A stretch of 64,000 nt of DNA. It comes from Candidatus Hydrogenedens sp. GTDB lineage: Bacteria; Hydrogenedentota; Hydrogenedentia; Hydrogenedentales; Hydrogenedentaceae. The stretch lies in the NCBI GenBank assembly GCA_049968235.1, contig JBMFRC010000014.1, positions 1 through 64,000 on the forward strand. The letters are read 5' to 3'. Under the pieces are notes generated by a model. That model worked only from the letters and a program-made list of their open reading frames with translations, searched no databases and was not told the DNA's origin. A program made the translations under genes and the position numbers. Of this stretch, positions 19,221-49,586 are shown in pieces; position 1 is the first letter of the stretch, and each line of letters starts with the position of its first letter.

Positions 19221-20110
19221 ATCCTTCAAAGTTTGGCTCGTATTATATCGAATTTTTGCCTTGAATTTGAAATGTGTCCCTTTACCTGCTTTGATAAGAG
19301 GAATATATATGACTGTTAAATAAAACATATATATAATAAAAAGATTATATACAGAAAGGGTAAGTAGGAAAAAATAAAGCGACAAAAGGAATAGGTTAAT
19401 TACCCGGTAAGGAAAAAATTAAAAGAAAAAAGGTAAATGTGCGATATGATGAAAGAGGTAAAGCAGGTGAGACTTTTAGATTATACAGTGTCACAACAAA
19501 CACCGACATGATAAGAAAAATGATTGGGAGTGATGCAAGAGATAACCCTGTGGGAGAAATTGAAATGTAGATGAGTAGGAGGAAATGTATAGGATAAACG
19601 GGGGAGAGCGGAGGTTTCCATCCTTACTATTTTATGTATTGTTAAGAAGTGAGTAATGATTTCTCTGTGTTCTCTGTGGTTAATTATATTTTTTTCACCA
19701 CGAAAGACATGGAGAGGCGTGGAGGATACAGAGGGTTACAGAGAGCATGGAGGTATTTATTTTATGATATGTATTTTTTTATTATTATTCCTTTTGAATT
19801 AAAAAGATTATGCCTTGTTTTTTTTATTTTAAGTTTTATAACAAGCATAATATAAATTCTACTAATATGCGGTATATGTAGATGCTATATATTTATTTGT
19901 AACTTTACACATGTGCATAATTTATAATAATTTAAATAATCTTTAAATTTTATTTGACAAATATTGCTAAAGTATGTTAATTTTGTAAAAGACAATTGAA
20001 TATTTATTAAGATTTATTTTTGATAAGGGCTAATTTGTGTGAGGACAGTATCCTGCACTTATAGTTTGTTATGTTTATTAATCGAAACTTTTTAACAGAA
20101 GGAGTGGCTT

Positions 20111-22180
20111 ATGCAAAGGTTAAAATTGGTAATCGGTTTTCAATTATGTCTGTGGCTCTTTGTAATTGGAGCATGGGCTGATGCGCCCGCAAACTACACA
20201 TGGACTAATGCCCCCGGAGGTGCATTTACTGCGTCAAGCGTGGATTTTGAAGCATGGATGACCAAATTGGCTCAATTCCAGTTTGGTGGTGATGCTGTCT
20301 TTGATTTCTTAGACCCGACGGATGCAGATAATAATGACAATGGTGTGCTGGATGTATATGAGTTTGCTTTATTAACTGCAATTTGCAACGATACTTCACA
20401 TCCGCTACACGACACAATTCATGAGGCTTTCAAAGCAAACTGGACTGCATTTCAATCTCATCAAGGTGCATTAGTTAATTCACTTGCCCCCGCATTGGCG
20501 ATTATAGGTGGTGCGTATGCTACATTAGGCGATGGCGATTATGGCAGGACACCTGCTGCATGGTTCTCAGGCTCCTGGGGCTCGGTAGCGGAAATTCTAT
20601 ATGGATTATCCTCCTACGGTTCTTCATGGGGTGCAGGTCAACCTGCGGAACCACCGTATGTTCGTCGTCAATCATATATGTCTATGTGTGGCGACTTTGA
20701 TAGTGATGGCGTAAAGAACATTAACGAATGGTACGGGCAGAGTGGCAATGTAGAAAACTATGTTTCTGCCGCAATGAACCCATCAGTTACCACAAGTGGA
20801 GAAGACCCGAACGGTGTCTGTGAGACAGGTTTACGCTGGGGCAAAACTTATTTTTATAATCCTGCCAATCAACATGTATATTGGTTACAACCCTATAGTT
20901 TGCCATGGGAAATTGCTGAACAGGTTGCTACGGAACATAGCCTTGTGAACAATTCAAGTGAAACTATAGCCATTCCAGGTCATCTGGTAACTATAGATGA
21001 TTCTGCAGAAAATGCCTGGATTATGAGCACGGTGTATCCACAAATCAATAGTAACATGTGGATAGGTGCCACAGATAAACTTACAGAAGGACAGTGGATT
21101 TGGATTGGAACAGGTGAACAATTCTGGCAGGGTGCTGCCGATGGAACTCCCGTTGGTGGGAAGTATACGAATTGGAATTCAGGAGAACCTAATGATTCCA
21201 GTGGTGAAGATTATGGCGAAATTACCAGTAGTGGCGGTTGGAATGATAATAAAGCCAGTGCTACTCGTAGAGGTTTAGTTGAGTTCCCGAATGCATATCC
21301 CGATAGCAATACCAACGGTATTCCTGATTACTGGGAGCAATTCTCAGGAGGAGGTGGTGGCGAAGGAGAAGGAACCGTTGAAGGGACACCTGAAGGTACA
21401 CCCGAAGGAACACCGGAAGGTGAAGCACCGTGTGAATTTGAAGGAAGGATAAATGACTCAACCTTAGGACAGGGTCCATTATTGGCTCAGACTTTAGAAA
21501 GTAATAGTTCGCAATTAAATGCCTTGCTAACTGCTTTAGATATGTTGAGTTGGTTCAACTGGGATATCGAGTATTTAGAAGAAGTTATTGCCATGATTCG
21601 TCCATATCCCGGAGATGGATTGAAAGATTCATGGAGTATGGCATTGTTAGAATACTGCATCTGCCATCCCAATTTCCGCACCGATTTAAATATCCCGGCA
21701 GATTTTGATTACAACAAGACATTATTCGAGCAAGACTGCACATGGTTAGCCACAAATGTTGACCCAATATTCGCTGTATTACCACCGATGGTAGGTGATG
21801 TAATGGCAGGGCTATTAGGTTCCAGTGTAGAAATGCGAACCACATGGAATGCTATATTCCTTGCATTAACAGGTGGTGCAGTCGGATTGCCGAGTGTAAA
21901 TAACTACCGTATCTATGGAATGGCAAAGGCAAATGATGGTGCTATTGCAGCAAATGGTGACCTCGATGGTGACGGTAAGACGAACCTGCAAGAAGCACAG
22001 GAAGTCATTGCCGTGGGCGGTGGTATGGAATTATTTGTAAAAGCAGCCACAGATAAGACCAACATGTGGCCCGGCAATCCCGAAATTCCTGTCGGTGCAA
22101 TTGCCATTATTGGTGCAATGACAGGTGTAATTGTGGCTGGAAGTTCATTAATCTTAATTCGTCGACGTAAACAACTATAA
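20111..22180 (+). CDS. Secreted C-type-lectin-domain protein with a GTPEG repeat linker, DxDxDG calcium-binding-like motifs and a C-terminal PEP-CTERM-like anchor
   Basis: Signal peptide (…FVIGAWA). CTLD hallmarks (…[23 protein letters not shown]…[31 protein letters not shown]…). [13 protein letters not shown] linker. [15 protein letters not shown] motif. C-terminus …[34 protein letters not shown] (PE-P-like motif, TM helix, basic tail). Confidence 0.7.
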
Positions 22181-22194
22181 TAACTTATTATTAT

Positions 22195-22223
22195 GGCACC
22201 CGGTTGCTGTGATACCGGGTGCC
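22195..22223 (+). terminator. GC-rich hairpin between the lectin gene and the pseudopilin gene (weak or absent U-tract; candidate attenuator/terminator)
   Basis: 10-bp perfect stem ggcacccggt/accgggtgcc with a 9-nt loop, followed by aaaatgtggttt. Confidence 0.3.
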
Positions 22224-22265
22224 AAAATGTGGTTTAATTTTAATATTAATGGAGGATATAGGCTT

Positions 22266-23159
22266 ATGAAACAGAGAAAAGGCTTTACTCTCATTGAACT
22301 TCTTGTTGTTATTGCCATTATTGGCATACTTGCGGCAATTTTATTGCCAGCACTTGCTCGTGCTCGTGAGGCAGCGCGTCGTTCTTCCTGTCAGAATAAC
22401 TTAAAGCAGATAGGTTTGTCTATGAAGATGTATGCTAACGAGGCAAAAGGAGAACGCTTCCCTACAGTAAGTATAGCAGGTGGAGATACTTGTGATGATA
22501 TTCGCATTGATTTTATGTGGTGGGGACCGCAATTGTATCCAGAATATTTATCAGACCTGAATGTTAATGTATGCCCATCCGATTCTGATGGTAAAAGGGC
22601 ATATACCGATGGTCGCTGGCATTGCGGTGGGAATCCGGGTAATCCTATTTGCCCTTGCAGAATTGATGCTCTATCTTATATCTACATTTGCTGGACATTA
22701 CGCGAACAGGATTATATGATGCCTGGTATGGACCCCAATGACCCAAATGTCTCTTCCTTCCAATTACCTATTAATTATATTAACCCGTTCTTCGTACAAT
22801 TCCTTATGGACCTGGTAGCTGCGGTAAATGCTTCTCCAGATACAAGTACAGCACTGGGACTTGTAGATAAAGATTTTACATACAACACAGCAGATTCTCA
22901 AGGTAAGATAACCATGTATCGACTTCGTGAAGGAATAGAACGATTCCTTATCACTGACATTAACAATCCTGCTGCAAGTACACAAGCACAAAGTGAAATT
23001 GCTTTCTTTTTCGATGGTATAGAAACAACTCCATCAGACTTCAATCATATTCCTGGTGGTGCTAATGTGCTTTATATGGATGGGCATGTGCAATTTGTTC
23101 GTTTCCCAACAGACCATCCTGCTAATAAAGTATTTGCTGCAATTATTGGAAATGTCTAA
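22266..23159 (+). CDS. Prepilin-type N-terminal cleavage/methylation-domain protein with a C-terminal H-X9-DG motif (DUF1559-type pseudopilin-like)
   Basis: [51 protein letters not shown]… N-terminus and C-terminal …[27 protein letters not shown] upstream of the ATG at 22266. Confidence 0.85.
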
Positions 23160-23190: not shown

Positions 23191-23229
23191 GAAGACTGCT
23201 TCTATAAAAAGAAGCAGTCTTTCTTTTAA
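23191..23229 (+). terminator. Rho-independent terminator after the pseudopilin gene
   Basis: Stem gaagactgcttc/gaagcagtctt with an 8-nt A-rich loop, followed by ttcttttaat. Confidence 0.6.
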
Positions 23230-23282: not shown

Positions 23283-24215
23283 ATGCAATGTAACCAAAGG
23301 GAAAAAGTGGAAGATATTCTTTCAGAACAGGCTATTGAAATTATCAAGAATCTTGATGTAGGTGCTTATGTTGTTTCCCCCGAAAGAGAGATTCTTTTCT
23401 GGAATGATAAAGCGTCTGAAATAACGGGTTATAACGACAATGAGGTGGTAGGTTCTTTATGTCAGGACAATCTATTGCGTCATGTGGATGACAACGGAAC
23501 AGAACTGTGTATTCACGGATGTCCTCTATTAGAAACAATTAAAGATGGACAAATCCGTAAGACTCGTGTTTATTTGCGACACAAAGCAGGCTATCGAATG
23601 CCTGTAAAAGTAGAGACTTTACCCATTAAGATAAACAATGAAATTAAAGGTGCTGTTGAATTTTTTCAGGAGGATACTGAAGAACTTAATTTATTAGAAG
23701 AACTTCGCAGAACCCGTGAAAAAGCCTTAATCTGTCCTCTAACCGAAATTGGAAATCGCAGGTACACGGAGCAGATGCTTAAAGACCGTTTAGAAGAAAT
23801 GAATCGGTTAAAAAGTAGTTTAGGTTTGTTCTTTATTGATATCGATGATTTTAAGCATATCAACGATACTTATGGACATCCCATAGGCGATATCGTGTTG
23901 AAAATGGTTGCCCGAACCCTTGTAAGTATAATGCGTCCGTATGATTTTGTAGGACGATGGGGAGGCGAAGAAATTGTTGCAATAGTACCTCATGTAAAAC
24001 AGGAAGAATTGTTTGAATTGGGAGAGAGATTCCGTAAATTGATTTCAGCCAGTAGTATAAAAACAATGCAGGGACGATTAGGTGTTACAGTCTCTATCGG
24101 TGCAACCGTTTCTTGTGTAGAAGATACAGTTTATTCTATTATTGAACGGGCAGATAGAATGATGTATGAAAGCAAACGTAACGGTAAAAATAGGGTTACT
24201 ATTTATTCCTCTTAG
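23283..24215 (+). CDS. PAS-domain diguanylate cyclase (GGDEF; active-site GGEEI)
   Basis: N-terminal PAS-like region; GGDEF domain with …RWGGEEIVAIVPH… and …FFIDIDDFKHINDTYGHPIGD…. Confidence 0.85.
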   Translation: MQCNQREKVEDILSEQAIEIIKNLDVGAYVVSPEREILFWNDKASEITGYNDNEVVGSLCQDNLLRHVDDNGTELCIHGCPLLETIKDGQIRKTRVYLRHKAGYRMPVKVETLPIKINNEIKGAVEFFQEDTEELNLLEELRRTREKALICPLTEIGNRRYTEQMLKDRLEEMNRLKSSLGLFFIDIDDFKHINDTYGHPIGDIVLKMVARTLVSIMRPYDFVGRWGGEEIVAIVPHVKQEELFELGERFRKLISASSIKTMQGRLGVTVSIGATVSCVEDTVYSIIERADRMMYESKRNGKNRVTIYSS

Positions 24216-24220
24216 TGCTT

Positions 24221-25009
24221 TTATCCACGAGTTTCGATACGGTGATTTTTTCCAGCATAGTGAAGATTATCAAAATATTTCTGGGGATTGATAATTCTTC
24301 CATTTTGTGAAATTTCCAGATGTAAATGATTGCCTGTAGACCTTCCTGTTGAACCCACCTTCGCTATTTGTGTCGTTATATCAACTTGCTCTCCTTTTTT
24401 GACTAAATTTTTCTCGTTGTGAGCATAGAAACTACTTGTGCCATCTTCATGTTTTATTCTCACATAATTTCCATAACTTTTACTAAAACCTGTCTCTTCT
24501 ACAATACCTGCTTTAACAGGATATATGGGTGCTCCTCGAGGTGCAGATATATCTATTCCCTTATGAAAAGTTCTTTTCCCTGTAAATGGGTCATTTCTCC
24601 AGCCATATGTAGAGGAAACCCGTTTTTGTAATGGGACAATACCTGACAGCGGATTGGATGAATTTTTGTAGGTATTTTTTAGTTTCTGATTGAAATTTTT
24701 CAAAACTTTTACAGGAGGATTTGCTACACTTTTTAAGGAAGAAACTGAGTTCATATTACCTGAAAAAATATTATATGCTTCTAAATTTTTAGGATATGAC
24801 AAAAGAATAGGGGGAAGGTTGCTGACATTTACAAAACTCGGAGAATTATTAGAAGAAATTTCTGAATCCATATTATTCAAGAGTATGTTCAAAAAGGAAG
24901 TATTTTGAATTTGCTGTAATAACGACAAATTGGATAGGGAAAATATTCCCGTATTTTTCTCTATCATATTGTTTTTCGTTGAATAAGAAATTGGAGAAAT
25001 ACGGTGCAT
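24221..25009 (-). CDS. M23-family (LytM-type) metallopeptidase with an N/S-rich low-complexity N-terminal half
   Basis: …FHKGIDISAPRGAPIYPVKAGIV…GNHLHLEI… (HxxxD and HLH motifs); no obvious signal peptide. Confidence 0.8.
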   Translation of the reverse strand: MHRISPISYSTKNNMIEKNTGIFSLSNLSLLQQIQNTSFLNILLNNMDSEISSNNSPSFVNVSNLPPILLSYPKNLEAYNIFSGNMNSVSSLKSVANPPVKVLKNFNQKLKNTYKNSSNPLSGIVPLQKRVSSTYGWRNDPFTGKRTFHKGIDISAPRGAPIYPVKAGIVEETGFSKSYGNYVRIKHEDGTSSFYAHNEKNLVKKGEQVDITTQIAKVGSTGRSTGNHLHLEISQNGRIINPQKYFDNLHYAGKNHRIETRG

Positions 25010-25215
25010 AGGTTTATCCTGAAAGTTGATTATTTATAAGCAAAATATGTTCCAATTATATATTTTTTTAAGTCCTTGATAGAACATAATTAAAATAAGT
25101 TATACATGTAATATATCGGGAATTTTTTAACATATAAAGGAATTTTTTTCCAGATGTAATAGGTAACTTCGTAAATACAGATGATACATCTCTTTTGTTC
25201 GTTATTAAATTTTTT

Positions 25216-26178
25216 TTACATTTCATCCGAACAAATGAGGCAGGATGCACAAAGAGGATTTTTCGAGAAATCACCACGTATAAAATTCTGACGAATTTCT
25301 ATAGCCCGTGGAGAATTCCATACATCGTAAATAGAACTTTCCGCCACATTCCCTAAAACCATTTTCTTGAAATAATCCGTGCAACATAAAACCATATCCC
25401 CATTAAATAGGATATAGGCTTGTTTAAATAAACGGGTGCAGTGTTTGAATGGAATTGCCTTGCCGGGATTTAATTTGCGGAAAGTAGAATTATTTCCGCC
25501 TCGATTTTCCAATGCAGTATATTTTGAATTAACACCCATTTTTTTCCAGTAATTTACTGCTTTATCTACATCAATAAGATTTGTTTTAACCATAGTTATG
25601 GTGATTTTCAATTCGGGACAATGTTCATTTCGTTTTTGAATAAGATACTCAACATTTCTTTTTGTCTCTTCAAATTTTAAACTTCCTCGCATTGTTTCTT
25701 CATAAGGTTCTTTTTCGATGCCCTGCATGGAAATAAATATGTGCTGGAAGGGATTATCTTTAATCAGGTCATCTACCACAGCAGGTGATAATTTCCCACC
25801 ATTCGTTGTGATGATAATTCGTGATTTGGGGATAATTTTCTTGATATATCGTGAGCGTTCTAAAATTTTGGGGTCTAAAAAGGGTTCGTTCATTAAGTAG
25901 GGGCTGATACGGCGTGTTTTCTTATGTTGTGCGATTTCGTGAACAATTTTTTGAAATAACTCGTCGTTCATCGTTCCTTTTGGAACATGTTCTACACTTA
26001 AAACATAGGGGCAAAAAACACAAGCGCCATTACAACCGGTTTTCGTTTGTATTTGCACTGTAAGTGGAAAATCAGGAACTTTACGAAGCATTAGAGATTT
26101 CACTGTATCAGCCCACCACCGTTCATCTGTGCCTTTTATATAAAAACTTTTCTTCCATTTTCTAATGAAATTTATCAT
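25216..26178 (-). CDS. Radical SAM enzyme with a C-terminal SPASM/twitch-like Cys cluster (orphan; no precursor peptide identified)
   Basis: CNGACVFCPY (CxxxCxxC) at residue ~49, and C-terminal …LCCTDYF…CASCLICSDEM cysteines. Confidence 0.8.
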   Translation of the reverse strand: MINFIRKWKKSFYIKGTDERWWADTVKSLMLRKVPDFPLTVQIQTKTGCNGACVFCPYVLSVEHVPKGTMNDELFQKIVHEIAQHKKTRRISPYLMNEPFLDPKILERSRYIKKIIPKSRIIITTNGGKLSPAVVDDLIKDNPFQHIFISMQGIEKEPYEETMRGSLKFEETKRNVEYLIQKRNEHCPELKITITMVKTNLIDVDKAVNYWKKMGVNSKYTALENRGGNNSTFRKLNPGKAIPFKHCTRLFKQAYILFNGDMVLCCTDYFKKMVLGNVAESSIYDVWNSPRAIEIRQNFIRGDFSKNPLCASCLICSDEM

Positions 26179-26313: not shown

Positions 26314-29300
26314 CTATTTAATAAAAATATCGTTCAGGGTAACATAACGCAAGTTACCAAATTGTGCAAGAGAGTCAGGGGTTATCCTGTTTAGTGGTAA
26401 CATGACGCTGATAAGTCTCTTACTGGATTTAACTTTTTTATCATGGAACTGAATTAAATCTTGCAGGGTTAATTTCTGGATGCCTGCATACCATTGTTTT
26501 CTTGGGTCATCTTCAAACCCATGGAGATACCAGCCATATACACGTCCTAATATACTTCGGAATGGAACCTTATCCGTTTGATAGTCATTTAGGACAGATT
26601 CTTTCGCAAAACGGAAACGTTCTTCGGATACAGGTAGATTATCAAATAAATGTAAAAAACATTCCAATGCATCTTTTAATTTATCGGGTTGTGTCTGGAT
26701 AACACCAACCATTAAATCTTCATCACCTTTCCTGTATCCCCCAATATACTGGGCTCCTGCTACATAGGCTAATGCTCGTGCTTCCCTTAATTCTTGAAAA
26801 ACAACTCCTGCCATACCACCACCAAAATATGAATTAAAAACCTCTATTACGGGTTCTTCTTCCATCGTAGATTCTTCCAATCCGAACTCTATTCGCACAT
26901 TTGCCTGTGTGGTTTCTTTGTCCAGCATATACAACTGTGTGTTTTCTGGCTTTCGCGATTTTAAGTATATATAAGGGGGTGTATCTTTCAACAAGGATGA
27001 AAATTTTTTTGTTTTTTCTTTTTGTCCTAATTCCTTTTTTAAATAACTTTTATAAAGTTTTGTTATATCTTTATGATTTAATGTGCCTGCATAAAAAATA
27101 TGGTGTTTATAATTCAACAAATTTTTTGTTATATCCTGTAGTTCTTCAACAGATAATTTTTTCAAATCCTCTTCTGGAAGTAGGTTCAAATAGGCGGATT
27201 GTGTATCTAAACGGTTGAACTGCACCAATGCCCGCATCACCTCTTCCGGGTCCTTTTTGGAATCCTCTCGTTGAGTGAGAATAATTGCCTTTAACTCTTC
27301 CAGTACATCTTTTTCTACTTGAGGATGAAACATTACTTCCATTAATAAATCCATAGTTTCCTTAAAACGGTCGTCAAAGCCATTTAAGGAAATTACAGTT
27401 TCATTATTGATAGAACGGACATTAAATTCTGCTCCTAGTTTATACCATTCTTTTTTGAGGTCTTCTGCGGAAAGATAACGCGTTCCGGATTTTTCCAGTA
27501 ATCGTAGAGCCACTGGAATTTTAGGATTGTGATAATTGCCTATATCTACCCGTATTTCAAAGCTGAAAATTTTATTCAACGGATTTTTGCAAAACCAGAA
27601 ATCCAGTCCTTCTTTTTTCGGAAGATGAATGTAATCTTTCCCTTTTTTCAAGAAAACGGGTTTGCTTTCAGTCGTAGGAATGGATAAAATCTGCTGGGCA
27701 AAAGGAGAAAGTTTTGTGCTATCAATTGTTAATGGTGTTAACTTTGGTTTAGGGACATAGTTAATTTCACGCTCCCCATTCTTACGATAGCCTGCGACAT
27801 ATCCCTGCGAAAAATATTTTTTGGCAGTACTTATAATTTCATCTTTGGTTATCTTTTCCATACGTTCAATTCGTTTCAAATGTTCCTGCCAATCTTCATG
27901 TGCGATGAACGCGTCCGTAAGTTCACTTACCCGTCCTTCGTTTGTTTCCCTCGAACGCTCCTTCATTTTTCGGAAGTCTGTAATAATTGCAGATAAAAGC
28001 CAATCTTCAAAGTTTCCTTCACAAAGCAGTTTTATTTGTTCTAACAATAAGTGTTCCACATCTTCCAAACTCTGTCCATCTTTCGGTACTCCCAATATAT
28101 ATTCAACACCTAAATCATTCAATTGCACAATAAAAGAGCCTGCTCTTCTAACTTTTTGTTTTTGGGTCAGATTTAGATTAATTAGTCCTGCTACGGCGTT
28201 GTCTAAAATCATATCTATCAGAGCAATTTTATCGGCATCCGGGTGTAATTTGGGCACAGTGCGAAAAGCAAGTATTACTTCCGGTTCACCTTCAAATTGT
28301 ATTTCTACCGAAATTCTTTCTTTCAACGGTTCATAACAATATGTAGAAATAGGCGAACAGATTTTGTTTCCTTCAATTTCCCTATTTGCTATTGGAGGTT
28401 TTTCCTTACTCCTTTCTTCGTTTGTTTTTTCTTTCCTTATTTCTGAAAAATACTTTGCAATAATTTCTATCGCCTCTGGAATCTTTATATCTCCAGATAT
28501 TCCAATGGATAGATTTTCAGGCACATACCATTTCTCAAAGAAATTCTTGATGTTCTTTATGGATGGATTTTTCAAGTGTTCTGGTTCGCCCAATACGGTT
28601 TGTGTCCCATAAGGATGGTCAGGGAACAACGCTTTATTGATTGTTTCCATCAACATTTGTTCACGATTATCCATAGCACGATTCTTTTCTTCATACACGG
28701 TTTCCAGTTCTGTCGCAAACAGACGGAAAATTGGTTTTGAGAATCGGTCGGATTCTAACATTGCCCAGTGTTCTAAACACCCCGAAGGCAGTTCCACTTT
28801 GTATACTGTTTCATCAATCCATGTATGAGCATTAATCTTATCCCCTCCCAGTGATTTATAAACACGGTCCAATTCATTAGGAACTGCATATTTGCTTGCT
28901 TCTTGAGAAATTTGGTCAATTTCTTTGTAAATTTCTTCCCGTTTTTGTGTATCTGTTGTTTGCCGATATTTTTCATACAACTCTTCAATTTTATCGAGTA
29001 GTTCCTTTTCTTTGGTGAAATCAATAGTTCCCAATCGTTCTGACCCTTTAAACATCAGATGTTCAAAATAATGTGCTAAGCCGGTAGTTTCTGGCGGGTC
29101 ATTCTGACTGCCTGTTCGAACAGCTATCTCTGCATAGAAACGAGGAACTTCATGATTCTCTGTTAAATATACAGTTATTCCGTTGGCTAAACGATAAATA
29201 TATACCTGCATGGAATCCTCAGGTTTGGGTTGATATACCAGTTGGTAGCCATAAACGGAGCCTGTTGAACAGAAAACTACTGTGCTCATTGTTATTCCTA

Positions 29301-29322
29301 TAAAAAAATGTTTCATATTCAT
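26314..29322 (-). CDS. Secreted two-module M16 (pitrilysin/insulinase-family) zinc peptidase, 1002 aa
   Basis: Signal peptide; inverted zincin HYFEH(L) motif (…LAHYFEHLMFKGSERLG…); length consistent with tandem M16 active + inactive halves. Confidence 0.8.
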   Translation of the reverse strand: MNMKHFFIGITMSTVVFCSTGSVYGYQLVYQPKPEDSMQVYIYRLANGITVYLTENHEVPRFYAEIAVRTGSQNDPPETTGLAHYFEHLMFKGSERLGTIDFTKEKELLDKIEELYEKYRQTTDTQKREEIYKEIDQISQEASKYAVPNELDRVYKSLGGDKINAHTWIDETVYKVELPSGCLEHWAMLESDRFSKPIFRLFATELETVYEEKNRAMDNREQMLMETINKALFPDHPYGTQTVLGEPEHLKNPSIKNIKNFFEKWYVPENLSIGISGDIKIPEAIEIIAKYFSEIRKEKTNEERSKEKPPIANREIEGNKICSPISTYCYEPLKERISVEIQFEGEPEVILAFRTVPKLHPDADKIALIDMILDNAVAGLINLNLTQKQKVRRAGSFIVQLNDLGVEYILGVPKDGQSLEDVEHLLLEQIKLLCEGNFEDWLLSAIITDFRKMKERSRETNEGRVSELTDAFIAHEDWQEHLKRIERMEKITKDEIISTAKKYFSQGYVAGYRKNGEREINYVPKPKLTPLTIDSTKLSPFAQQILSIPTTESKPVFLKKGKDYIHLPKKEGLDFWFCKNPLNKIFSFEIRVDIGNYHNPKIPVALRLLEKSGTRYLSAEDLKKEWYKLGAEFNVRSINNETVISLNGFDDRFKETMDLLMEVMFHPQVEKDVLEELKAIILTQREDSKKDPEEVMRALVQFNRLDTQSAYLNLLPEEDLKKLSVEELQDITKNLLNYKHHIFYAGTLNHKDITKLYKSYLKKELGQKEKTKKFSSLLKDTPPYIYLKSRKPENTQLYMLDKETTQANVRIEFGLEESTMEEEPVIEVFNSYFGGGMAGVVFQELREARALAYVAGAQYIGGYRKGDEDLMVGVIQTQPDKLKDALECFLHLFDNLPVSEERFRFAKESVLNDYQTDKVPFRSILGRVYGWYLHGFEDDPRKQWYAGIQKLTLQDLIQFHDKKVKSSKRLISVMLPLNRITPDSLAQFGNLRYVTLNDIFIK

Positions 29323-29481: not shown

Positions 29482-31116
29482 ATGTTTTCTCCCAATTCTT
29501 TTTTAGGAAGGCATCCTATTTTAAGATGGACACTAATAACCATTGTGTTAATTATCGTTTTGTTCTTTTTATGGCTTTATTCACGCATGCGTGGACCATA
29601 TCAAAATTATACACTTGACTTTTTAATTCCCGACCCTGCTTCTACACCGCAACCCGGTGTCCTTGAAGTAGGCGTGGCTAAAAGGGATATTACTCCTATT
29701 CTTGACCTGTATGATACATGGGAAGATGTGAACAATAATGGGAAATTTGACCCGGGTGTGGATACTTATGTAGATAAGAACAATAATGGGAAATTTGATG
29801 GTATATGGATAGCGGGTTTTGGGACTAATCGTCCTGCAAAAGGAATCCATGACCCGCAATGGGTTCGTGCTATTGCGTTTCGTAATAATGGTGTTACTCT
29901 GGTTATGGCAAGTTTTGATGCCATCGGTATCTATCATAATGACTTTATAACCATTCGCAAAAGTATAGACCCCGGTTTAAAGATAGACCATGTTCTGTTT
30001 TCATCTACCCACTGCCATGAAGTAGTGGACACCATGAAAATCTGGACTTTCTGGAAACGAATTAAAGGACTGGATATTCCGGGTTTCGGTTATGATGATA
30101 GGCACATGAAATTTATTCAGAAGCTGGCTAAAGAGGCGATAGAAGAAGCAGTCCGTAATCTGCAACCTGCGGATATGTATTGCACGAAAGTAGAAGTAGG
30201 ACCGGAAGGATTTATTCGCGATTCTCGAAAACCGGAGGTAATAGACCCTTATATGTATTTATTCCGATTCACGAAACCTAATACAGACGAAACTATAGCC
30301 ACCTTTGTGTCATGGGGTAATCATCCAGAATCGTCAGGAAGTGAAAATAATTACCTTTCCTCGGATTTCTGTCATACTCTTCGTGAAGGATTAGAAAATG
30401 GTGTCCCCGAACCCAATGGTGCCCCCGGTTTTGGTGGTATGTGTTTATATTTTCAGGGAATGGTTGGCGGTCTTATGACACAACTGGGGGTTGAAGTTCC
30501 AGACCGTTCCGGGAAGACAACATATAAAGAATCCTCGTTAGAAAAAGGCGAAGCATTGGGATATAATGTAGCCCTTGTAGCAATTAATGCACTCCGCGGA
30601 CCCAATGTCTGGAAAAATGAAAACCCTCTGCTAGCAGTTTCTGCTAAAACATATCTCGCTCCTATGCAGGGACACTTCAAATATGCAATTATGTTAGGAC
30701 TTATTCATGAAGGATATTATTGGGGCGGTAAATCGAAAACGGAAGTCAATGTTGTGCGTATTGGCGATGTTATGATTACTACTGTTCCGGGCGAATTATA
30801 CCCCGAAATTGTTCAGGGTAATATTGAAGCACTGCCGGGTAATGATTTCAACCTGACTGCTCCTGTAGAAAATCCCCCTTTACGAATGGAAATGGAAAAA
30901 GAATCTAGGATGGCATTCGTTATCGGTTTAGCCAATGATGAGATTGGATATATACTTCCCCAATCGCAATGGGATACAAAGCCTCCATTTGTATATGGAA
31001 AGAGTCAATATGGTGAAGAGAACTCTGGCGGACCTGAAGTGGGGACAACCTACCACAAGAACGCATTGGAACTTATCCGGCGAATGAATAAAGCCTATCC
31101 ACGAAAGACGAATTAA
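29482..31116 (+). CDS. Neutral/alkaline ceramidase-like hydrolase (Ceramidase_alk family), N-terminal membrane anchor
   Basis: The conserved N-terminal block aligns by eye with neutral ceramidases (GVAKRDITP…[23 protein letters not shown]…[11 protein letters not shown]…[12 protein letters not shown]). A TM helix lies at residues ~15-35. Confidence 0.6.
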
Positions 31117-31159: not shown

Positions 31160-32587
31160 ATGAGCAAAGGAATAACCAAACGCTCTGAAGATTATTCTCA
31201 ATGGTATATTGACATTGTATTGAAAGCGGAATTGGCAGATTATAGTCCTGTAAAAGGTTGTATGGTTATCCGACCTAACGGTTATGGTATCTGGGAGAAT
31301 ATTCAGAAGAACCTCGACCGTATGTTTAAGGAAACGGGGCATGTCAATGCATATTTCCCTATGCTCATTCCTGAAAGTTTCCTGAAAAAAGAGGCAGAAC
31401 ATGTAGAAGGTTTCGCTCCAGAGTGTGCTGTAGTAACACATGGTGGGGGAAAGCCCCTGGAGGAACCGTTAGTAATACGACCAACCTCAGAAACAATTAT
31501 CTGGGCTACTTATAAAGATTGGATAAGTTCTTACCGTGATTTGCCGTTGCTTATTAATCAATGGGCAAATGTCTGCCGTTGGGAAATGCGAACACGACTT
31601 TTCCTTCGTACCACAGAATTCCTATGGCAGGAAGGGCATACCGCTCATGCTTCCTATGAAGAAGCAGAAGAAGAAGCCCTTCGAATGATTCGTGTATATC
31701 AGAGATTTGCAGAGGATTATCTTGCTATGCCTGTGATTGTAGGTAAGAAAACGGATTCCGAAAAATTTGCTGGTGCTGTCCATACCTATTGCATCGAAGC
31801 ACTCATGCAGGATGGGAAAGCCTTGCAGGCGGGGACATCTCATAATTTAGGACAAAATTTCGCAAAGGCGTTTGATGTAAAATTTCAGGATAAAGATAAA
31901 GAATTGAAATATGTATATGCTACAAGTTGGGGTGTTTCGACGCGACTTATTGGTGGAATGATAATGACACATTCCGATGACCAGGGACTTGTTGTCCCGC
32001 CGAAATTGGCGCCCCTACCTGTAGTAATTGTTCCCATCTGGAGAAGTGATGAGGAGCAACAAAAAGTTTCTGAATTTGCACAAAATATTACCAGAGATTG
32101 GGACCCTCTTTTTTATAAATTTGATGACCGTGACCAGTACAAACCCGGTTATAAATTCAATGAATGGGAACTGAAAGGTGTCCCTCTACGCATTGAAATA
32201 GGTCCTCGTGATATACAGAATAAACAGGTAGTACTTGTGAGAAGAGATAATGCGGAAAAAATAACTTTGAGTATTGATAACTTGAAAGAACATGTAGAAA
32301 ATACTCTTGCAGATATACAAAATAACCTATTTAAAAAAGCCAAGGAAAGAACTGAAGCGAATACATTCACTGTTGATTCTTATAATGAATATAAAGAACG
32401 GATTGAAAAGGGTGGATTCTTCCGTGTGTTCCTTGACCATACCAATCCGGAAGTGGAACAGCGATTAAAGGAAGAAACAAAATCAACCATTCGTTGTATC
32501 CCCTTTGATGTACCTGAAGAAGAAGGTCCCTGTATGATAACGGGTAAACTTTGTAAATATCGTGTTATCGCCGGGCAAGCGTATTAA
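31160..32587 (+). CDS. proS: Prolyl-tRNA synthetase, archaeal/eukaryotic-like type (no INS editing domain)
   Basis: 475-aa class II aaRS with ProRS-specific N-terminus (…[39 protein letters not shown]…) and a C-terminal zinc-binding-like tail. Confidence 0.9.
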
Positions 32588-32689: not shown

Positions 32690-33595
32690 TTAATCACCAC
32701 CGGTTTGACTATCCAGGAAACAAGCCCATAAACGAGAAACAGGGTTTGTTCCAGGATAACGCACAAACTCCACATGTCCGTCCATATATAAAACATTTCC
32801 GCCACCGGGAACATGATTCATATATTCGGGTTGGGAATTAACATCATCGGACAATATCCATACTTCACTTTGGGCTTTGTTGGAAGCAGCAGGATTGTTA
32901 ATATCTGTTATCAGGAATCGTTCAATCCCTTCGCGAAGCCGATATATTGTAACAGTTCCTTGTTTTGCATCGGAGTCCAACAAACTAGCGTCTCCATTAT
33001 TTGCCCAGTTTGCATAACCATTGTTGATTATCGTTAAAATGGCGGTTAAGAAGTCTGGGTTGAAATAGTTCATTGCATTAGTTTCATTAATTGCCGGGTC
33101 ATTAACATCCTGTCCGGGTAGAACCATATCCTCATCCATTATTGCCCAACCATAATAATTGTATGATTCCGCACTGAAACGACATGGATTTTTCTCATCC
33201 AGATTGGGGTCAGCATTACGGTTCCACCAACCATCTACAGTAACATGTGTTCGTGCAGTCGAATCCGATGGACATATTAAGATATTTGTATCTGTTAAAT
33301 ATTCTGGATACACAGCCCGTGCATTGAAAAATGCTTCAATAGAACCCCGCCTTTTGCAATCATCAGGCATAGTACGGTCCCCCTGCCATATTTGAATTGA
33401 GGGGTATCTTTCCCCTTTCGATTCATTTGAATACATCTTGAACACCAAACCTAATTGTTTAAGATTGTTTTGACAGGAAGACCGCCGTGCCGCTTCACGG
33501 GCACGAGCCAGCGCTGGTAAAAGGATAGCAGCAAGTATTCCGATTATCGCTATCACAACCAGCAGTTCAATGAGAGTAAAACCTTTTTTTAACAT
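32690..33595 (-). CDS. Prepilin-type N-terminal methylation-domain / H-X9-DG (DUF1559-type) pseudopilin-like protein, paralog 2
   Basis: [50 protein letters not shown]… and C-terminal …[18 protein letters not shown]; paralogous to 22266..23159. Confidence 0.85.
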
Positions 33596-48223: not shown

Positions 48224-49573
48224 ATGACACAGCGTTTTACATTACTAGATTCAGATGATTTCGGTAAAGAACCTGACAACAAAAAGGTTGGGAAGGTGAG
48301 TAATCCGGGTTCAGTGGTAGGCTTTTCAGGTGTAATGTCTGGGAAGGAAGAGTTTCCCGGTAAGAAAATCCTTATTAAAGTTTGTGGTGTAGGCGGAGGA
48401 GGAGGAAATGCCATTGAACGGATGATAGAACAAAAGATGGAAGAGGTGGATTTCATTGCTATTAACACCGATGCTCAGGCATTGTCCAAATCTACCGCTC
48501 CTATCAAGATACAGATAGGTGTAGGTATCACAGGAGGATTGGGAGCGGGTTCTCTTCCGGACTGTGGTGCTTGTGCGGCAGAAGAGGACCGGGAAACCAT
48601 CCGTGAGGCTTTGGAAGGAGCCCACATGGTTTTCTTGACTTCGGGAATGGGTGGAGGAACAGGAACAGGTGCGGCTCCCATTGTGGCTGAAATTGCCAAG
48701 GATTTAGGTGCCCTTACCGTGGCGGTTGTTACTTTACCGTTTGAGTTTGAAGGTCCGGTAAGGAAACGAAATGCGTATGAAGGGATACAGAGGTTAAGAG
48801 AACATGTAGATGCTTTAATTACCATTCCGAATGACCGTGTATCAACATTAAAAGATTTGACTGTAAAAGAAGCATTTTTGAAAGTAGATGAGGTTTTGCA
48901 TAATGGAATACGTGCAATAACTGACCTTATCAAGATTCCTCAACTTATCAATATTGATTTTGCAGATGTGCGTACAATTCTTCAAAATAGTGGGAAAGCC
49001 CATCTGGGTATTGGTTTGGCTCGAGGGGAAAAAAGACCGGAGGAAGCGGTCCTTCGTGCTATTGAATGTAATTTACTAGATACAAAAAGTGTAGTTGGAG
49101 CCAAAGGGGCTATATTAAATATTCATGGTGGTTCTGATATGAAAATGGCAGAAGTGCTTCGTGCAGGTGATAAATTGAGAGAAATGTTGGGCCCTGATGC
49201 GAATGTGATATTTGGTGCAATGATAAGTGAAGGAGAAAGAGAAGATATTTGTGTTACAGTTATTGCTGCAGGTTTTCCGGAAGAACAAAAATCAAGTGAA
49301 TTTATTCCATCCGCAATTACTAATATTACCAAAGAACAACAGGTTACTTCTTCAATATCTTCTATAAATAAAGGGGATACGCTACAGATAAAAGAGAAGA
49401 AAGAAGAAGCAATTCCTAAGGAAGAAAAGAAACCGGAGCATGGAGAAGAACTCTTTTCTAAAGAAGAATTGAAAAAAGCAAATGAAACACCACCCAAAAA
49501 AGATGAAAAACCAACTTTAGACCCGAAACCTCCATGGCTTCGTCAATTTTTTGAAAAAAACTCGGATAGATGA
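48224..49573 (+). CDS. ftsZ: Cell division GTPase FtsZ
   Basis: Tubulin signature GGGTGTG (…LTSGMGGGTGTGAAPIVA…), T7 loop, long K/E-rich linker and a conserved C-terminal peptide (…PPWLRQFFEK). Confidence 0.95.
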   Translation: MTQRFTLLDSDDFGKEPDNKKVGKVSNPGSVVGFSGVMSGKEEFPGKKILIKVCGVGGGGGNAIERMIEQKMEEVDFIAINTDAQALSKSTAPIKIQIGVGITGGLGAGSLPDCGACAAEEDRETIREALEGAHMVFLTSGMGGGTGTGAAPIVAEIAKDLGALTVAVVTLPFEFEGPVRKRNAYEGIQRLREHVDALITIPNDRVSTLKDLTVKEAFLKVDEVLHNGIRAITDLIKIPQLINIDFADVRTILQNSGKAHLGIGLARGEKRPEEAVLRAIECNLLDTKSVVGAKGAILNIHGGSDMKMAEVLRAGDKLREMLGPDANVIFGAMISEGEREDICVTVIAAGFPEEQKSSEFIPSAITNITKEQQVTSSISSINKGDTLQIKEKKEEAIPKEEKKPEHGEELFSKEELKKANETPPKKDEKPTLDPKPPWLRQFFEKNSDR

Positions 49574-49586
49574 CAAAAGGTTTTTT

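What the first reader, a model, noticed from the sequence alone, without database searches (positions are those of the whole stretch)
20111..23159. Bacterial C-type-lectin-domain protein with PEP-CTERM-like sorting tail, immediately followed by a DUF1559 pseudopilin
The 689-aa protein has a signal peptide and a recognisable CTLD ([16 protein letters not shown]…NWNSGEPND…WNDNKA, including an EPN-like tripeptide that in eukaryotic CTLDs specifies mannose-type Ca-dependent binding). It also has a GTPEG x3 linker, DxDxDG Ca-binding-like motifs, and a C-terminal NPEIP-TM-RRRK tail resembling an exosortase (PEP-CTERM) sorting signal. CTLDs with PEP-CTERM anchors are uncommon and poorly characterised in bacteria. 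The next gene, after a strong hairpin with no U-tract, is a prepilin-like H-X9-DG protein, and a PAS-GGDEF cyclase follows. This may be a surface-adhesin / pseudopilus / c-di-GMP module.
Basis: partly seen in the sequence, partly recalled or inferred. Interest (0 to 1): 0.6.

Follow-up and report, generated by a model that had tools for sequence, protein, structure and literature searches.

The report
Bacterial C-type lectin, undescribed anchor module
An uncultivated Hydrogenedens bacterium encodes an exported, animal-style calcium-dependent sugar-binding protein whose C-terminus is not a PEP-CTERM signal but part of a conserved ~200-residue anchor cassette, absent from Pfam and NCBIfam, that is shared by hundreds of other putative surface proteins and may be a new protein-sorting signal.

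Summary
ORF 20111-22180 encodes a 689-aa exported protein. Its C-type lectin domain passes Pfam (40.5 bits) and keeps every Ca2+/sugar-site residue of mannose-binding protein A (EPN...E...WND), but both canonical disulfides are missing. The organism is a Candidatus Hydrogenedens MAG.

The "PEP-CTERM" reading is not supported: no curated sorting-signal model recognises the tail. The tail is instead the end of a conserved ~200-aa cassette with these parts:
- a helical "HD" module with an EF-hand-like loop
- a [FW]-x-G-N-P-x-L-P motif
- a ~22-residue TM segment
- an R/K cluster

The cassette occurs in at least 501 protein clusters (50% identity). Their cargo is diverse: lectin, Ig-like, PKD, LRR, beta-helix, C25 protease. 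HD is also duplicated N-terminal of the lectin domain. It models confidently (pLDDT 91.7) and has no PDB relative. The cassette meets 6 of Haft's 8 criteria for a tripartite C-terminal sorting signal and partly meets a seventh. No sorting enzyme was found.

The lectin-DUF1559 pairing is weakly supported: prepilin genes are about 11-fold enriched next to cassette proteins, based on small numbers. A canonical terminator separates the PAS-GGDEF gene, so the c-di-GMP link is unsupported. Verdict: a new variant of a known kind, of moderate interest.

The parts
20111..22180 (+). Gene for the 689-aa exported C-type lectin: SP-HD1-CTLD-linker-HD2-tail
   Evidence: ORF; 84-36% identical homologues with the same layout
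20111..20185 (+). Signal peptide (residues 1-25, AWA|DA)
   Evidence: Inspection of the sequence; nearly all complete carriers start the same way
20321..20785 (+). HD1, first copy of the helical HD module (residues 71-225), with EF-hand-like loops at 73-84 and 195-206
   Evidence: hhalign HD1 vs HD2: probability 95.8%, E 7.6e-9, 139 columns; HD HMM hit 76-230 in ORF numbering
20816..21289 (+). C-type lectin domain (residues 236-393); Ca2+ site 2 = E359-P360-N361, E366, W377-N378-D379; site 1 = D322, E326, D362, D367
   Evidence: Pfam PF00059, 40.5 bits; phmmer vs PDB: CEL-I 1.6e-11, MBP-A 4.3e-8, with aligned site residues; all Foldseek top hits are CTLDs; these residues are invariant in the family
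21302..21337 (+). Third EF-hand-like loop, [12 protein letters not shown] (residues 398-409)
   Evidence: Sequence; small HD-HMM hit on this loop
21347..21430 (+). Gly/Glu/Thr/Pro-rich linker containing (EGTP)x3 (residues 413-440)
   Evidence: Sequence; pLDDT below 50
21563..22063 (+). HD2, second HD module (residues 485-651), with EF-hand loop [12 protein letters not shown] at 617-628; part of the conserved anchor cassette
   Evidence: AF2 pLDDT 91.7, pTM 0.79; every one of 74 carriers has an HD copy directly before the tail; no PDB relative
22067..22090 (+). Signature motif W-P-G-N-P-E-I-P (family consensus F-W-P-G-N-P-x-L-P-V-A-G)
   Evidence: N, P and P are invariant and G is in at least 90% of 44 tails; position frequencies over 101 carriers
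22091..22171 (+). Hydrophobic TM segment (661-683) followed by the RRRK cluster (684-687), two residues from the C-terminus
   Evidence: Sequence; family median is 22 residues from motif to basic cluster and 4 residues from basic cluster to C-terminus
22195..22223 (+). Intercistronic GC-rich hairpin (9-bp stem, 11-nt loop), no U-tract
   Evidence: -25 kcal/mol for the 85-nt spacer, z -2.6; identical in L001, and a different hairpin sits at the same place in L007; unique in the window
22266..23159 (+). DUF1559 / H-X9-DG prepilin-type protein (297 aa from ATG 22266)
   Evidence: N_methyl 4.6e-10, DUF1559 5.9e-13; TIGR04294 8.4e-7; start revised
23191..23222 (+). Canonical intrinsic terminator (13-bp stem plus T-tract) that ends the lectin-prepilin unit

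Best explanation
The gene encodes a Sec-exported, Ca2+-dependent, mannose/GlcNAc-type (EPN) C-type lectin of a Candidatus Hydrogenedens bacterium. It is held on the cell envelope by a conserved C-terminal anchor cassette that Pfam and NCBIfam do not describe. The cassette is a ~165-aa helical 'HD' domain with an EF-hand-like Ca2+ loop, then an invariant G-N-P-x-L-P motif, a ~22-residue transmembrane helix and an R/K cluster at the extreme C-terminus. A second HD copy sits between the signal peptide and the lectin domain. The proposed mechanism has three steps. First, the signal peptide drives export, and the C-terminal helix with its basic cluster acts as a stop-transfer anchor, with the positive charges on the cytoplasmic side; this is inferred from the sequence. 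Second, the juxtamembrane NPxLP motif is recognised by an unidentified sorting enzyme that releases or re-anchors the protein for surface display, possibly with help from the type II secretion/pseudopilin machinery encoded next door. This step is inferred by analogy with LPXTG, PEP-CTERM, GlyGly-CTERM and MYXO-CTERM and has not been shown. Third, the lectin domain binds sugars with equatorial 3,4-hydroxyls through its Ca2+ site; the residues are shown, the binding is not. The same cassette carries many other adhesin- or enzyme-type cargos, so it is a general display device of this lineage, with the lectin as one passenger.
For: CTLD: Pfam 40.5 bits. It aligns to MBP-A and CEL-I with all Ca2+-site residues, and these are invariant across 10 homologues. 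The fold search returns only CTLDs. Cassette: a profile of the last 83 residues finds 501 clusters at E <= 1e-3 and 170 at E <= 1e-10 in 1.84e9 representatives. The proteins are 84-2331 aa long and the match nearly always ends at the C-terminus. 106 of the 147 newly found proteins among the 150 listed carry NPx[LIVMF]P in their last 60 residues. N, P and P are invariant. Spacing is tight: 22 residues to the basic cluster and 4 to the end. Nearly all complete carriers have signal peptides. All 74 complete carriers tested have an HD module abutting the tail. Cargo is diverse: Lectin_C 10/79, Big_2 8, PKD 5, LRR 4, WD40, beta-helix, choice-of-anchor Q and Peptidase_C25, and 77% of pairs have no cargo similarity once HD is masked. 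No Pfam or NCBIfam model covers the HD module or the signature motif; a few -CTERM models touch only the TM/basic end, weakly. HD models at pLDDT 91.7. Organism: the window ProRS is identical to MGC8738957.1 of Candidatus Hydrogenedens sp., and a 59%-GC carrier contig carries a Hydrogenedentota GlyRS. Pseudopilin link: 5 prepilin genes within 1.5 kb of carriers in 30.8 kb, against 2 in 134.6 kb elsewhere, Poisson P 3e-4. T2SS dependence of processed C-terminal-signal proteins has precedent (bioRxiv 10.1101/2023.06.07.544157).
Against: No sorting enzyme was identified, and nothing shows that the tail is cleaved. The conserved unit (~200 aa) is far longer than classical 25-35-aa sorting signals, so the NPxLP motif could be a structural cap of the HD domain rather than a recognition site. 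Multiple carriers per genome was not demonstrated: there is one per locus, including the 64-kb window. Both canonical CTLD disulfides are absent, and the AF2 model of the long-loop region is poor (pLDDT ~30), so sugar binding is unproven. The window's own motif (NPEIPVGA) departs from the family consensus (NPxLPVAG). Carrier-adjacent prepilins are not a distinct subfamily, and the enrichment rests on 7 genes.
Confidence: 0.6

Rival explanations
1. Plain type I membrane protein. The C-terminal helix is a permanent inner-membrane anchor, so the lectin faces the periplasm and is never processed. The NPxLP motif and HD domain are structural, for example a membrane-proximal stalk.
For: No sorting enzyme was found near about 20 carrier loci or in the window. 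The conserved region is a folded ~165-aa domain plus tail rather than a short peptide. There is one carrier per locus. HD also occurs as four tandem copies with no tail at the end of the visible part, in an ORF that runs off the contig (L008), so it has a role independent of sorting.
Against: Plain anchors do not normally keep invariant juxtamembrane residues (N, P, P; G in at least 90%) with fixed spacing across cargos that share nothing else. The cargos are typical surface or extracellular domains (LRR, PKD, Big_2, choice-of-anchor Q, C25 protease), which would have little to bind in the periplasm. The layout meets most of Haft's criteria.
Confidence: 0.3
2. PEP-CTERM/exosortase substrate. 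The tail is a divergent PEP-CTERM signal cleaved by an exosortase encoded elsewhere in the genome.
For: The tail has the tripartite layout, with a Gly/Leu/Ala-rich TM like PEP-CTERM helices. 2 of 44 tails touch TIGR02595 weakly. Exosortases are usually encoded far from their many substrates, so their absence from 64 kb is uninformative.
Against: TIGR02595 gives no hit on the window protein or its isolated tail, even at E <= 10. The best hit over 44 tails is E 0.076, while IPTL-CTERM (7/44) and LPXTG (5/44) score more often. The motif is NPxLP rather than PEP, and the basic cluster has a large Lys share (R:K 201:145 over 101 tails). No Exosortase_EpsH family appeared in any neighbourhood scanned.
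Confidence: 0.12
3. Sortase substrate. The L-P-V-A-G core of the family consensus is an LPXTG/LPXAG-type signal cleaved by a sortase transpeptidase.
For: The consensus LP[VA][AG]G followed by TM and a basic tail resembles LPXTG. The LPXTG_anchor HMM reaches 16.6 bits (cut-off 15.9) on the isolated window tail and hits 5 of 44 tails.
Against: Those HMM matches cover only model positions 12-33, the TM and basic part, not the LPXTG motif. Position 4 is Ala or Gly, never Thr. The window itself has IPVGA. The invariant residues are N-P upstream, which have no role in sortase signals. No Sortase family was found in any neighbourhood (and context tables).
Confidence: 0.08
4. Three-gene functional module (lectin adhesin + DUF1559 pseudopilus + PAS-GGDEF) under c-di-GMP control.
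For: The three genes are contiguous and co-oriented in the window, L001/L002 and L046.
Against: All of those genomes are close relatives with general synteny. A canonical terminator lies between DUF1559 and PAS-GGDEF. The 50%- and 36%-identical lectin homologues have neither neighbour. No GGDEF gene appears next to any other carrier.
Confidence: 0.1

Closest known systems
Animal Ca2+-dependent C-type lectin CRDs (rat mannose-binding protein A, DC-SIGN/DC-SIGNR, sea-cucumber CEL-I)
   Same: Same Pfam family and fold. The long-loop region is present. The full Ca2+ site 2 (EPN, E, WND) and the site 1 acidic residues align one-to-one with MBP-A.
   Different: Both canonical disulfides are missing (Tyr368 replaces Cys195 of MBP-A, and no Cys sits at the 209/217 equivalents). 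There is a ~12-residue insertion before the EPN loop. The host is bacterial, and the domain is embedded between two HD modules and a membrane tail instead of a collagen or neck region.
Tripartite C-terminal protein-sorting signals (LPXTG/sortase, PEP-CTERM/exosortase, GlyGly-CTERM/rhombosortase, MYXO-CTERM/myxosortase; criteria in bioRxiv 10.1101/2023.06.07.544157)
   Same: Signature motif, TM helix and basic cluster at the extreme C-terminus. Carriers have N-terminal signal peptides and diverse cargo. Cargo families use other anchors elsewhere.
   Different: The motif N-P-x-L-P matches no curated model. The conserved region extends ~165 aa upstream into a folded domain. No cognate enzyme is known. 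Occurrence of several carriers per genome is not shown.
IPTL-CTERM (TIGR04174 / PF18203)
   Same: It is the curated model that most often touches these tails: 7 of 44, best E 6.4e-5. Both share a P-x-L core followed by a Gly/Leu-rich TM and basic end.
   Different: Where bit scores were returned they are below the 20.5-bit cut-off (13.4-17.8 bits). The invariant Asn and second Pro are not IPTL features. From my own recollection, not checked here, IPTL-CTERM is mainly proteobacterial.
Domain-plus-signal anchors such as the PGF-pre-PGF domain with PGF-CTERM, or the ~80-100-aa T9SS C-terminal domain (own knowledge)
   Same: A folded domain, rather than a bare peptide, marks diverse cargo for surface attachment. 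A C25 gingipain-type protease is among the cargos here, as it is for T9SS.
   Different: There is no sequence or structural similarity. HD is all-helical with EF-hand-like loops, whereas the T9SS CTD is a beta-sandwich. Here a TM helix and basic cluster follow.
DUF1559 / H-X9-DG prepilin-like proteins of Planctomycetota, Verrucomicrobiota and Lentisphaerota (PF07596, TIGR04294)
   Same: The downstream gene has all three hallmarks: the N-methylation site, DUF1559 and H-X9-DG.
   Different: It occurs in Hydrogenedentota and is positionally associated with cassette proteins, an association I did not find described in the papers searched.

Membership tests
C-type lectin domain (Pfam PF00059), Ca2+-dependent CRD | HMM score above the gathering threshold | tested here: met
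   40.5 bits against 22.6, E 5e-10, residues 290-383
C-type lectin domain (Pfam PF00059), Ca2+-dependent CRD | CTLD fold | tested here: met
   All top Foldseek-PDB hits are CTLDs, TM (target) 0.55-0.68; the model is only moderate (pLDDT 61.5) and the loop region poor
C-type lectin domain (Pfam PF00059), Ca2+-dependent CRD | Ca2+ site 2 / sugar-ligand residues (EPN or QPD, Glu, WND) | tested here: met
   E359-P360-N361, E366 and W377-N378-D379 align to MBP-A E185/N187/E193/N205/D206 (MBP-A numbering from own knowledge); invariant in 10 homologues
C-type lectin domain (Pfam PF00059), Ca2+-dependent CRD | Two conserved disulfides (C1-C4, C2-C3) | tested here: not met
   The domain has only one Cys (C237); Tyr368 aligns to Cys195 of MBP-A
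C-type lectin domain (Pfam PF00059), Ca2+-dependent CRD | Ca2+-dependent carbohydrate binding | not testable with these tools
   Needs recombinant protein with a glycan array or ITC, with and without EDTA
PEP-CTERM / exosortase system | Match to TIGR02595 (or a variant PEP-CTERM model) at its cut-off | tested here: not met
   No hit on the protein or on its isolated tail at E <= 10; 2 of 44 related tails hit, best E 0.076
PEP-CTERM / exosortase system | Pro-Glu-Pro signature motif | tested here: not met
   The window has N-P-E-I-P; the family consensus is N-P-x-L-P
PEP-CTERM / exosortase system | Exosortase (EpsH/Xrt) encoded in the genome | not testable with these tools
   Only 64 kb of the genome is available. 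None was found in the window ORFs scanned or in carrier neighbourhoods
Tripartite C-terminal sorting signal (Haft criteria 1-8) | 1. [quoted passage not shown] | tested here: met
   Matches end at the last residues; the basic cluster is a median of 4 residues from the end
Tripartite C-terminal sorting signal (Haft criteria 1-8) | 2. [quoted passage not shown] | tested here: inconclusive
   One carrier per locus, including the 64-kb window. Two different carriers occur in each of two assemblies (L010/L047, L048/L049), but the tetranucleotide signature cannot prove they share a genome
Tripartite C-terminal sorting signal (Haft criteria 1-8) | 3. [quoted passage not shown] | tested here: met
   N, P and P are invariant, G is in at least 90%, and W is in 85%. 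The homology region starts much further upstream than in classical signals
Tripartite C-terminal sorting signal (Haft criteria 1-8) | 4-5. Hydrophobic TM segment followed by a cluster of 2-5 basic residues | tested here: met
   Median 22 residues (range 16-29), then an R/K cluster; the window has 23 residues plus RRRK
Tripartite C-terminal sorting signal (Haft criteria 1-8) | 6. Most carriers have an N-terminal signal peptide | tested here: met
   By inspection of 79 N-termini; no predictor was run
Tripartite C-terminal sorting signal (Haft criteria 1-8) | 7. Many carrier pairs share nothing but the signal region | tested here: inconclusive
   True only if the 'signal region' includes the HD module. 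With the last 90 aa removed, 42% of pairs still match. With HD masked, 77% of pairs have no cargo similarity
Tripartite C-terminal sorting signal (Haft criteria 1-8) | 8. Cargo homologues elsewhere lack the signal or carry a different one | tested here: met
   CTLD homologues P0010-P0017 have other architectures. Choice-of-anchor Q domains are found in P0042 and P0067, and a Peptidase_C25 cargo in P0086
LPXTG / sortase signal | L-P-x-T-G motif matched by the model | tested here: not met
   TIGR01167 aligns only positions 12-33 (TM and basic part). The window has I-P-V-G-A and the family has L-P-V/A-A/G-G
DUF1559 / H-X9-DG prepilin (downstream gene) | Prepilin N-methylation site, DUF1559 and the H-X9-DG C-terminal motif | tested here: met
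   PF07963 4.6e-10, PF07596 5.9e-13; TIGR04294 8.4e-7, above its cut-off
EF-hand-type Ca2+ loop (in HD modules) | 12-residue D-x-[DN]-x-[DN]-G-x-x-x-x-x-E loop flanked by helices | tested here: met
   Four loops fit the pattern. The anchor profile hits parvalbumin at 2.3e-3 and calmodulins weakly on this loop. TSP3_bac hits 9 of 23. Ca2+ binding itself is not testable here

The most novel reading that the evidence does not exclude
The HD + G-N-P-x-L-P + TM + R/K cassette is the substrate tag of a new protein-sorting system centred on Hydrogenedentota. An as-yet unidentified membrane enzyme would cleave or re-anchor dozens of surface proteins per genome. DUF1559 pseudopilin-type proteins would take part in moving them across the outer membrane, which would also give the enigmatic DUF1559 family its first functional context. 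HD would be a new Ca2+-binding fold.
Probability: 0.3. Interest if true: 0.75.

Novelty: new variant of a known kind. Interest (0 to 1): 0.55.

Why it matters
Three things would follow if this holds up.

1. It would add an orphan C-terminal sorting/anchor signal to the known set (LPXTG, PEP-CTERM, PGF-CTERM, GlyGly-CTERM, MYXO-CTERM and others). This one would mark much of the surface proteome of an uncultivated, globally distributed phylum. It would also give annotators a model that turns hundreds of 'hypothetical proteins' into predicted surface proteins.

2. It shows a bacterial C-type lectin domain with the complete animal-type EPN Ca2+/sugar site but no disulfides. That bears on the origin of canonical CRDs and on how a putative polysaccharide or necromass degrader captures glycans.

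3. The positional link between cassette proteins and DUF1559 prepilins is a testable lead on the function of one of the largest uncharacterised paralogous families in PVC-type and related bacteria.

The HD domain is a confidently predicted fold with no solved relative.

Tried and rejected
- **Exact look-up of the window lectin:** not on record.
- **Word-indexed homology search with the tail (A3) and anchor (A8) profiles:** 2 and 8 hits only, none with a taxon name. The exhaustive representative search was needed.
- **AFDB50 fold search:** unavailable, so no organism labels came from structures.
- **Hunt for a sorting enzyme:** negative by neighbourhood tables and by a Pfam census of 35 neighbour ORFs.
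- **Carrier-adjacent DUF1559 genes as a dedicated subfamily:** rejected. They are 41-48% identical both to each other and to a non-adjacent paralogue.
- **BLASTP for an internal duplication:** only E 0.015 on the EF-loop. Profile-profile comparison was needed.
- **Regulatory RNA upstream or between the genes:** Rfam found only a tRNA elsewhere in the window, and the 725-bp upstream spacer has no repeats.
- **Hairpin as a REP-like repeat:** rejected, as there is a single copy in the window.
- **Lectin pseudogenisation in relatives:** L046's truncation is a 100-N scaffold gap. L007's frameshift may be an assembly error.
- **Tetranucleotide test for two carriers in one genome:** not discriminating, because all high-GC loci correlate at 0.9-0.97.
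- **Own error:** an initial frame error for the prepilin start (22267) was corrected to 22266.


Full report
**Observation.** The window holds an ORF at 20111-22180 (+) of 689 aa, followed by co-oriented ORFs at 22209/22266-23159 and 23283-24215. Pfam assigns Lectin_C to residues 290-383 of the first (E 5e-10, 40.5 bits, cut-off 22.6). It assigns N_methyl and DUF1559 to the second, and PAS and GGDEF to the third. NCBIfam adds the H-X9-DG C-terminal domain to the second, and finds no PEP-CTERM or other sorting-signal model on the first. The prepilin gene most likely starts at ATG 22266 (MKQRKG|FTLIELLVV), 8 nt after GGAGGA. That places the hairpin GGCACCCGG-N11-CCGGGTGCC (22195-22223) in the 85-nt spacer.

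**Organism.** The window's prolyl-tRNA synthetase (31160-32587) is identical to NCBI MGC8738957.1, 'MAG: proline--tRNA ligase [Candidatus Hydrogenedens sp.]'. This genus belongs to phylum Candidatus Hydrogenedentota. The window is about 37% GC.

**The lectin domain.**
- phmmer against all PDB sequences gives only C-type lectins: CEL-I 1.6e-11, rat MBP-A 4.3e-8, then DC-SIGNR, SP-D and mincle.
- In the MBP-A alignment, E359-P360-N361, E366 and W377-N378-D379 fall on the Ca2+ site 2 and sugar ligands. D322, E326, D362 and D367 fall on site 1 (MBP-A residue numbers are from my own knowledge).
- These residues are invariant in the ten-member family alignment.
- By established CTLD rules, EPN predicts mannose/GlcNAc/glucose-type specificity.
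- Both canonical disulfides are absent: Tyr368 sits where Cys195 sits in MBP-A, and the domain contains a single Cys.
- A full-length AF2 model from a 10-sequence alignment is moderate (pLDDT 61.5) and poor in the long loop. Its Foldseek-PDB hits are nevertheless exclusively CTLDs, with target TM-scores of 0.55-0.68.

**The family and its tail.** Only 17 homologues were found in 5.8e9 proteins. Nine share the N-terminal region, the CTLD and the tail; P0004 lacks the N-terminal region because its gene is frameshifted. In all of them the C-terminus reads W-x-G-N-P-x-L-P, then about 20 hydrophobic residues, then an R/K cluster. Isolated tails scanned against NCBIfam at E <= 10 touch LPXTG, IPTL, NPXTG or GVDTG models only over the TM/basic part. 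All but one of these matches are below the model's cut-off (LPXTG_anchor scores 16.6 against 15.9 on the window tail), and none touches PEP-CTERM.

**A widespread cassette.**
- A profile of the last 83 residues (A2) was searched exhaustively against 1.84e9 representatives. It found 501 proteins at E <= 1e-3 and 170 at E <= 1e-10, with lengths of 84-2331 aa. The match almost always ends at the C-terminus.
The consensus is ...EPFSA-GDxDGDGxTNxxEY-V-AAGGD-FV-AA-DP-NFWPGNPxLPVAG-(TM)-RKK.
- Over 101 carriers the position frequencies are F 81%, W 85%, G 92% and L 86%. N, P and P are 100% here because these 101 were selected on the motif, but they are independently invariant in the 44-tail alignment. 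The next positions are V/A 89%, A/G 70% and G 75%. A median of 22 residues separates the motif from the basic cluster, and 4 separate the cluster from the end.
- Nearly all complete carriers begin with a signal peptide.
- No Pfam or NCBIfam model covers the HD module or the signature motif on any carrier; a few -CTERM models graze the TM/basic end weakly.
- A census of curated -CTERM models on 44 tails gives IPTL-CTERM 7, LPXTG 5, NPXTG 4, CoaP 3, GVDTG 2 and PEP-CTERM 2, so none is specific.

**The HD module.**
- Removing 90 C-terminal residues still left 42% of carrier pairs similar to each other. An HMM of the window's residues 485-651 then showed that all 74 complete carriers have this ~165-aa module directly before the tail. 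Many have a second copy just after the signal peptide.
- The architectures seen are SP-HD-cargo-HD-tail (the window protein), SP-cargo-HD-tail and SP-HD-HD-tail.
- hhalign confirms that the window's residues ~73-227 and ~498-650 are homologous (95.8%, E 7.6e-9).
- With HD masked, 77% of pairs share no cargo similarity.
- Cargo families include Lectin_C (10 of 79), Big_2, PKD, LRR, WD40, beta-helix, choice-of-anchor Q, an OmpL47-type barrel, DUF5011 and Peptidase_C25.
- AF2 on a 23-sequence alignment of HD2 plus tail gives pLDDT 91.7 and pTM 0.79: a helical bundle followed by one long TM helix.
- By sequence, only EF-hand proteins (parvalbumin 2.3e-3) and TSP3_bac (9 of 23) touch the GDxDGDG loop.
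- HD also occurs as four tandem copies, with no tail in the part that can be read, in an ORF cut by the contig end on a Nitrospirales-labelled contig (L008). It is therefore an autonomous domain.

**Is it a sorting signal?** Haft's eight criteria (bioRxiv 10.1101/2023.06.07.544157) were checked one by one. Criteria 1, 3, 4, 5, 6 and 8 are met. Criterion 7 is met only if HD counts as part of the signal region. Criterion 2, several carriers per genome, could not be tested: there is one carrier per locus, and two pairs of carriers from the same assemblies cannot be assigned to one genome. No sortase, exosortase, rhomboid or CPBP gene was seen in the window ORFs scanned or around about 20 carrier loci. 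Processing therefore remains an inference.

**Distribution.** A metagenome scan for the DNA pattern of F-W-P-G-N-P-x-L-P-[VA] gave 33 loci, of which about 12 are true carriers. Carrier loci range from 37% to 64% GC. A 59%-GC carrier contig (L010) has a GlyRS that clusters at 90% identity or more with Hydrogenedentota MAG proteins. One carrier contig is labelled 'Nitrospiraceae bacterium' in NCBI, but its tetranucleotide signature correlates at 0.95-0.96 with the Hydrogenedentota-type loci. The cassette is therefore at least Hydrogenedentota-wide. Whether it reaches other phyla is open.

**Neighbours.**
- Lectin->DUF1559->PAS-GGDEF is conserved in L001/L002 (84% identity) and L046 (GCA_036769585.1). 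Lectin->DUF1559 is conserved in L007 (74%) despite a different upstream context. Neither neighbour accompanies the 50%-identical (L003) or 36%-identical (L005) homologues.
- Unexpectedly, ~300-aa prepilin genes lie beside unrelated carriers in L011, L015, L016 and L024. L024 has the same order and strand as the window.
- The count is 5 within 1.5 kb in 30.8 kb, against 2 in 134.6 kb elsewhere. Poisson P is 3e-4, or 3e-3 at the window's own density.
- The adjacent prepilins are not a distinct subfamily.
- Processed GlyGly-CTERM and MYXO-CTERM proteins need a type II secretion system to reach the surface. A pseudopilin link is therefore mechanistically plausible, but it is untested.

**Transcription signals.** The spacer hairpin is identical in L001. 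In L007 a different GC-rich hairpin replaces it at the same place. None of them has a U-tract. A canonical terminator (13-bp stem plus T-tract) lies at 23191-23222, between DUF1559 and PAS-GGDEF. The simplest reading is a lectin-prepilin bicistron with an internal attenuating or stabilising hairpin, and a separately transcribed diguanylate cyclase.

**Verdict.** The lectin is real, with a fully conserved sugar site. The PEP-CTERM label is wrong, but the underlying intuition of a sorting-type tail is right, and it leads to a larger, undescribed anchor cassette with a new helical domain. The pseudopilin association is a lead, and the c-di-GMP association is not supported. I rate the feature as a new variant of a known kind (tripartite C-terminal sorting/anchor signals). 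Interest is 0.55, and confidence in the stated explanation is 0.6. The cleavage step is the main uncertainty.

Noticed in passing
window 19386-20110: A 725-bp AT-rich, gene-free interval lies upstream of the lectin gene. In the 84%-identical relative L001, the same aldolase-to-lectin interval holds six extra genes (five with Pfam hits: Fe-S_biosyn, ArsP_1, HTH_5, Nitro_FeMo-Co, DUF134), so this is an insertion/deletion hot spot. There is no Rfam hit and no internal repeat.
   Followed up: partly
window 32690-33595 (-): A second DUF1559/H-X9-DG prepilin paralogue lies here. It is 51% identical to L001's orthologue of the prepilin beside the lectin gene, and has a 92%-identical orthologue in L001.
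   Followed up: partly
window 24221-26178 (-): An M23 peptidase and a radical SAM/SPASM protein sit side by side, and the pair is conserved in L001 and L046. In the window a 1002-aa M16 peptidase (26314-29322) lies next to them. This could be a peptide-maturation cluster, but no precursor was looked for.
   Followed up: no
L008 6299-9361 and 4556-6298: A Nitrospirales-labelled MAG contig encodes an ORF of more than 1021 aa with four tandem HD modules followed by an FGE-sulfatase-like start. A neighbouring protein has repeated 'LGELLRVIQFFNSGG' EF/dockerin-like units of the kind seen in P0040, P0088, P0121, P0132 and P0152.
   Followed up: partly
proteins P0011, P0012 and P0013: The nearest CTLD relatives outside the family include a protein of the alga Heterosigma akashiwo and GH25 + Lectin_C proteins, one from a Candidatus Methanofastidiosia archaeon. 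This hints at cross-domain transfer of this CTLD type.
   Followed up: no
L007 9336-11389: The 74%-identical lectin orthologue is split by a frameshift at residue 218 into 226-aa and 462-aa ORFs. This could be an assembly error or a real disruption. L046's apparent truncation is a 100-N scaffold gap.
   Followed up: partly
window 48224-50699 (+): A PilT/T2SSE-type ATPase gene (49551-50699) overlaps the end of ftsZ (48224-49573), which is an unusual neighbour for a division gene.
   Followed up: no
window 29482-31116; L003 1630-4059; L048 2389-4218: Neutral/alkaline ceramidase-like genes recur on contigs that carry cassette proteins. This may be a lineage marker or a link to lipid or glycolipid metabolism.
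   Followed up: no
window 23283-24215: The PAS-GGDEF protein has GGEEI in place of GGEEF, and an RxxD (RPYD) five residues upstream that is consistent with an I-site. It is probably an active, product-inhibited cyclase.
   Followed up: no
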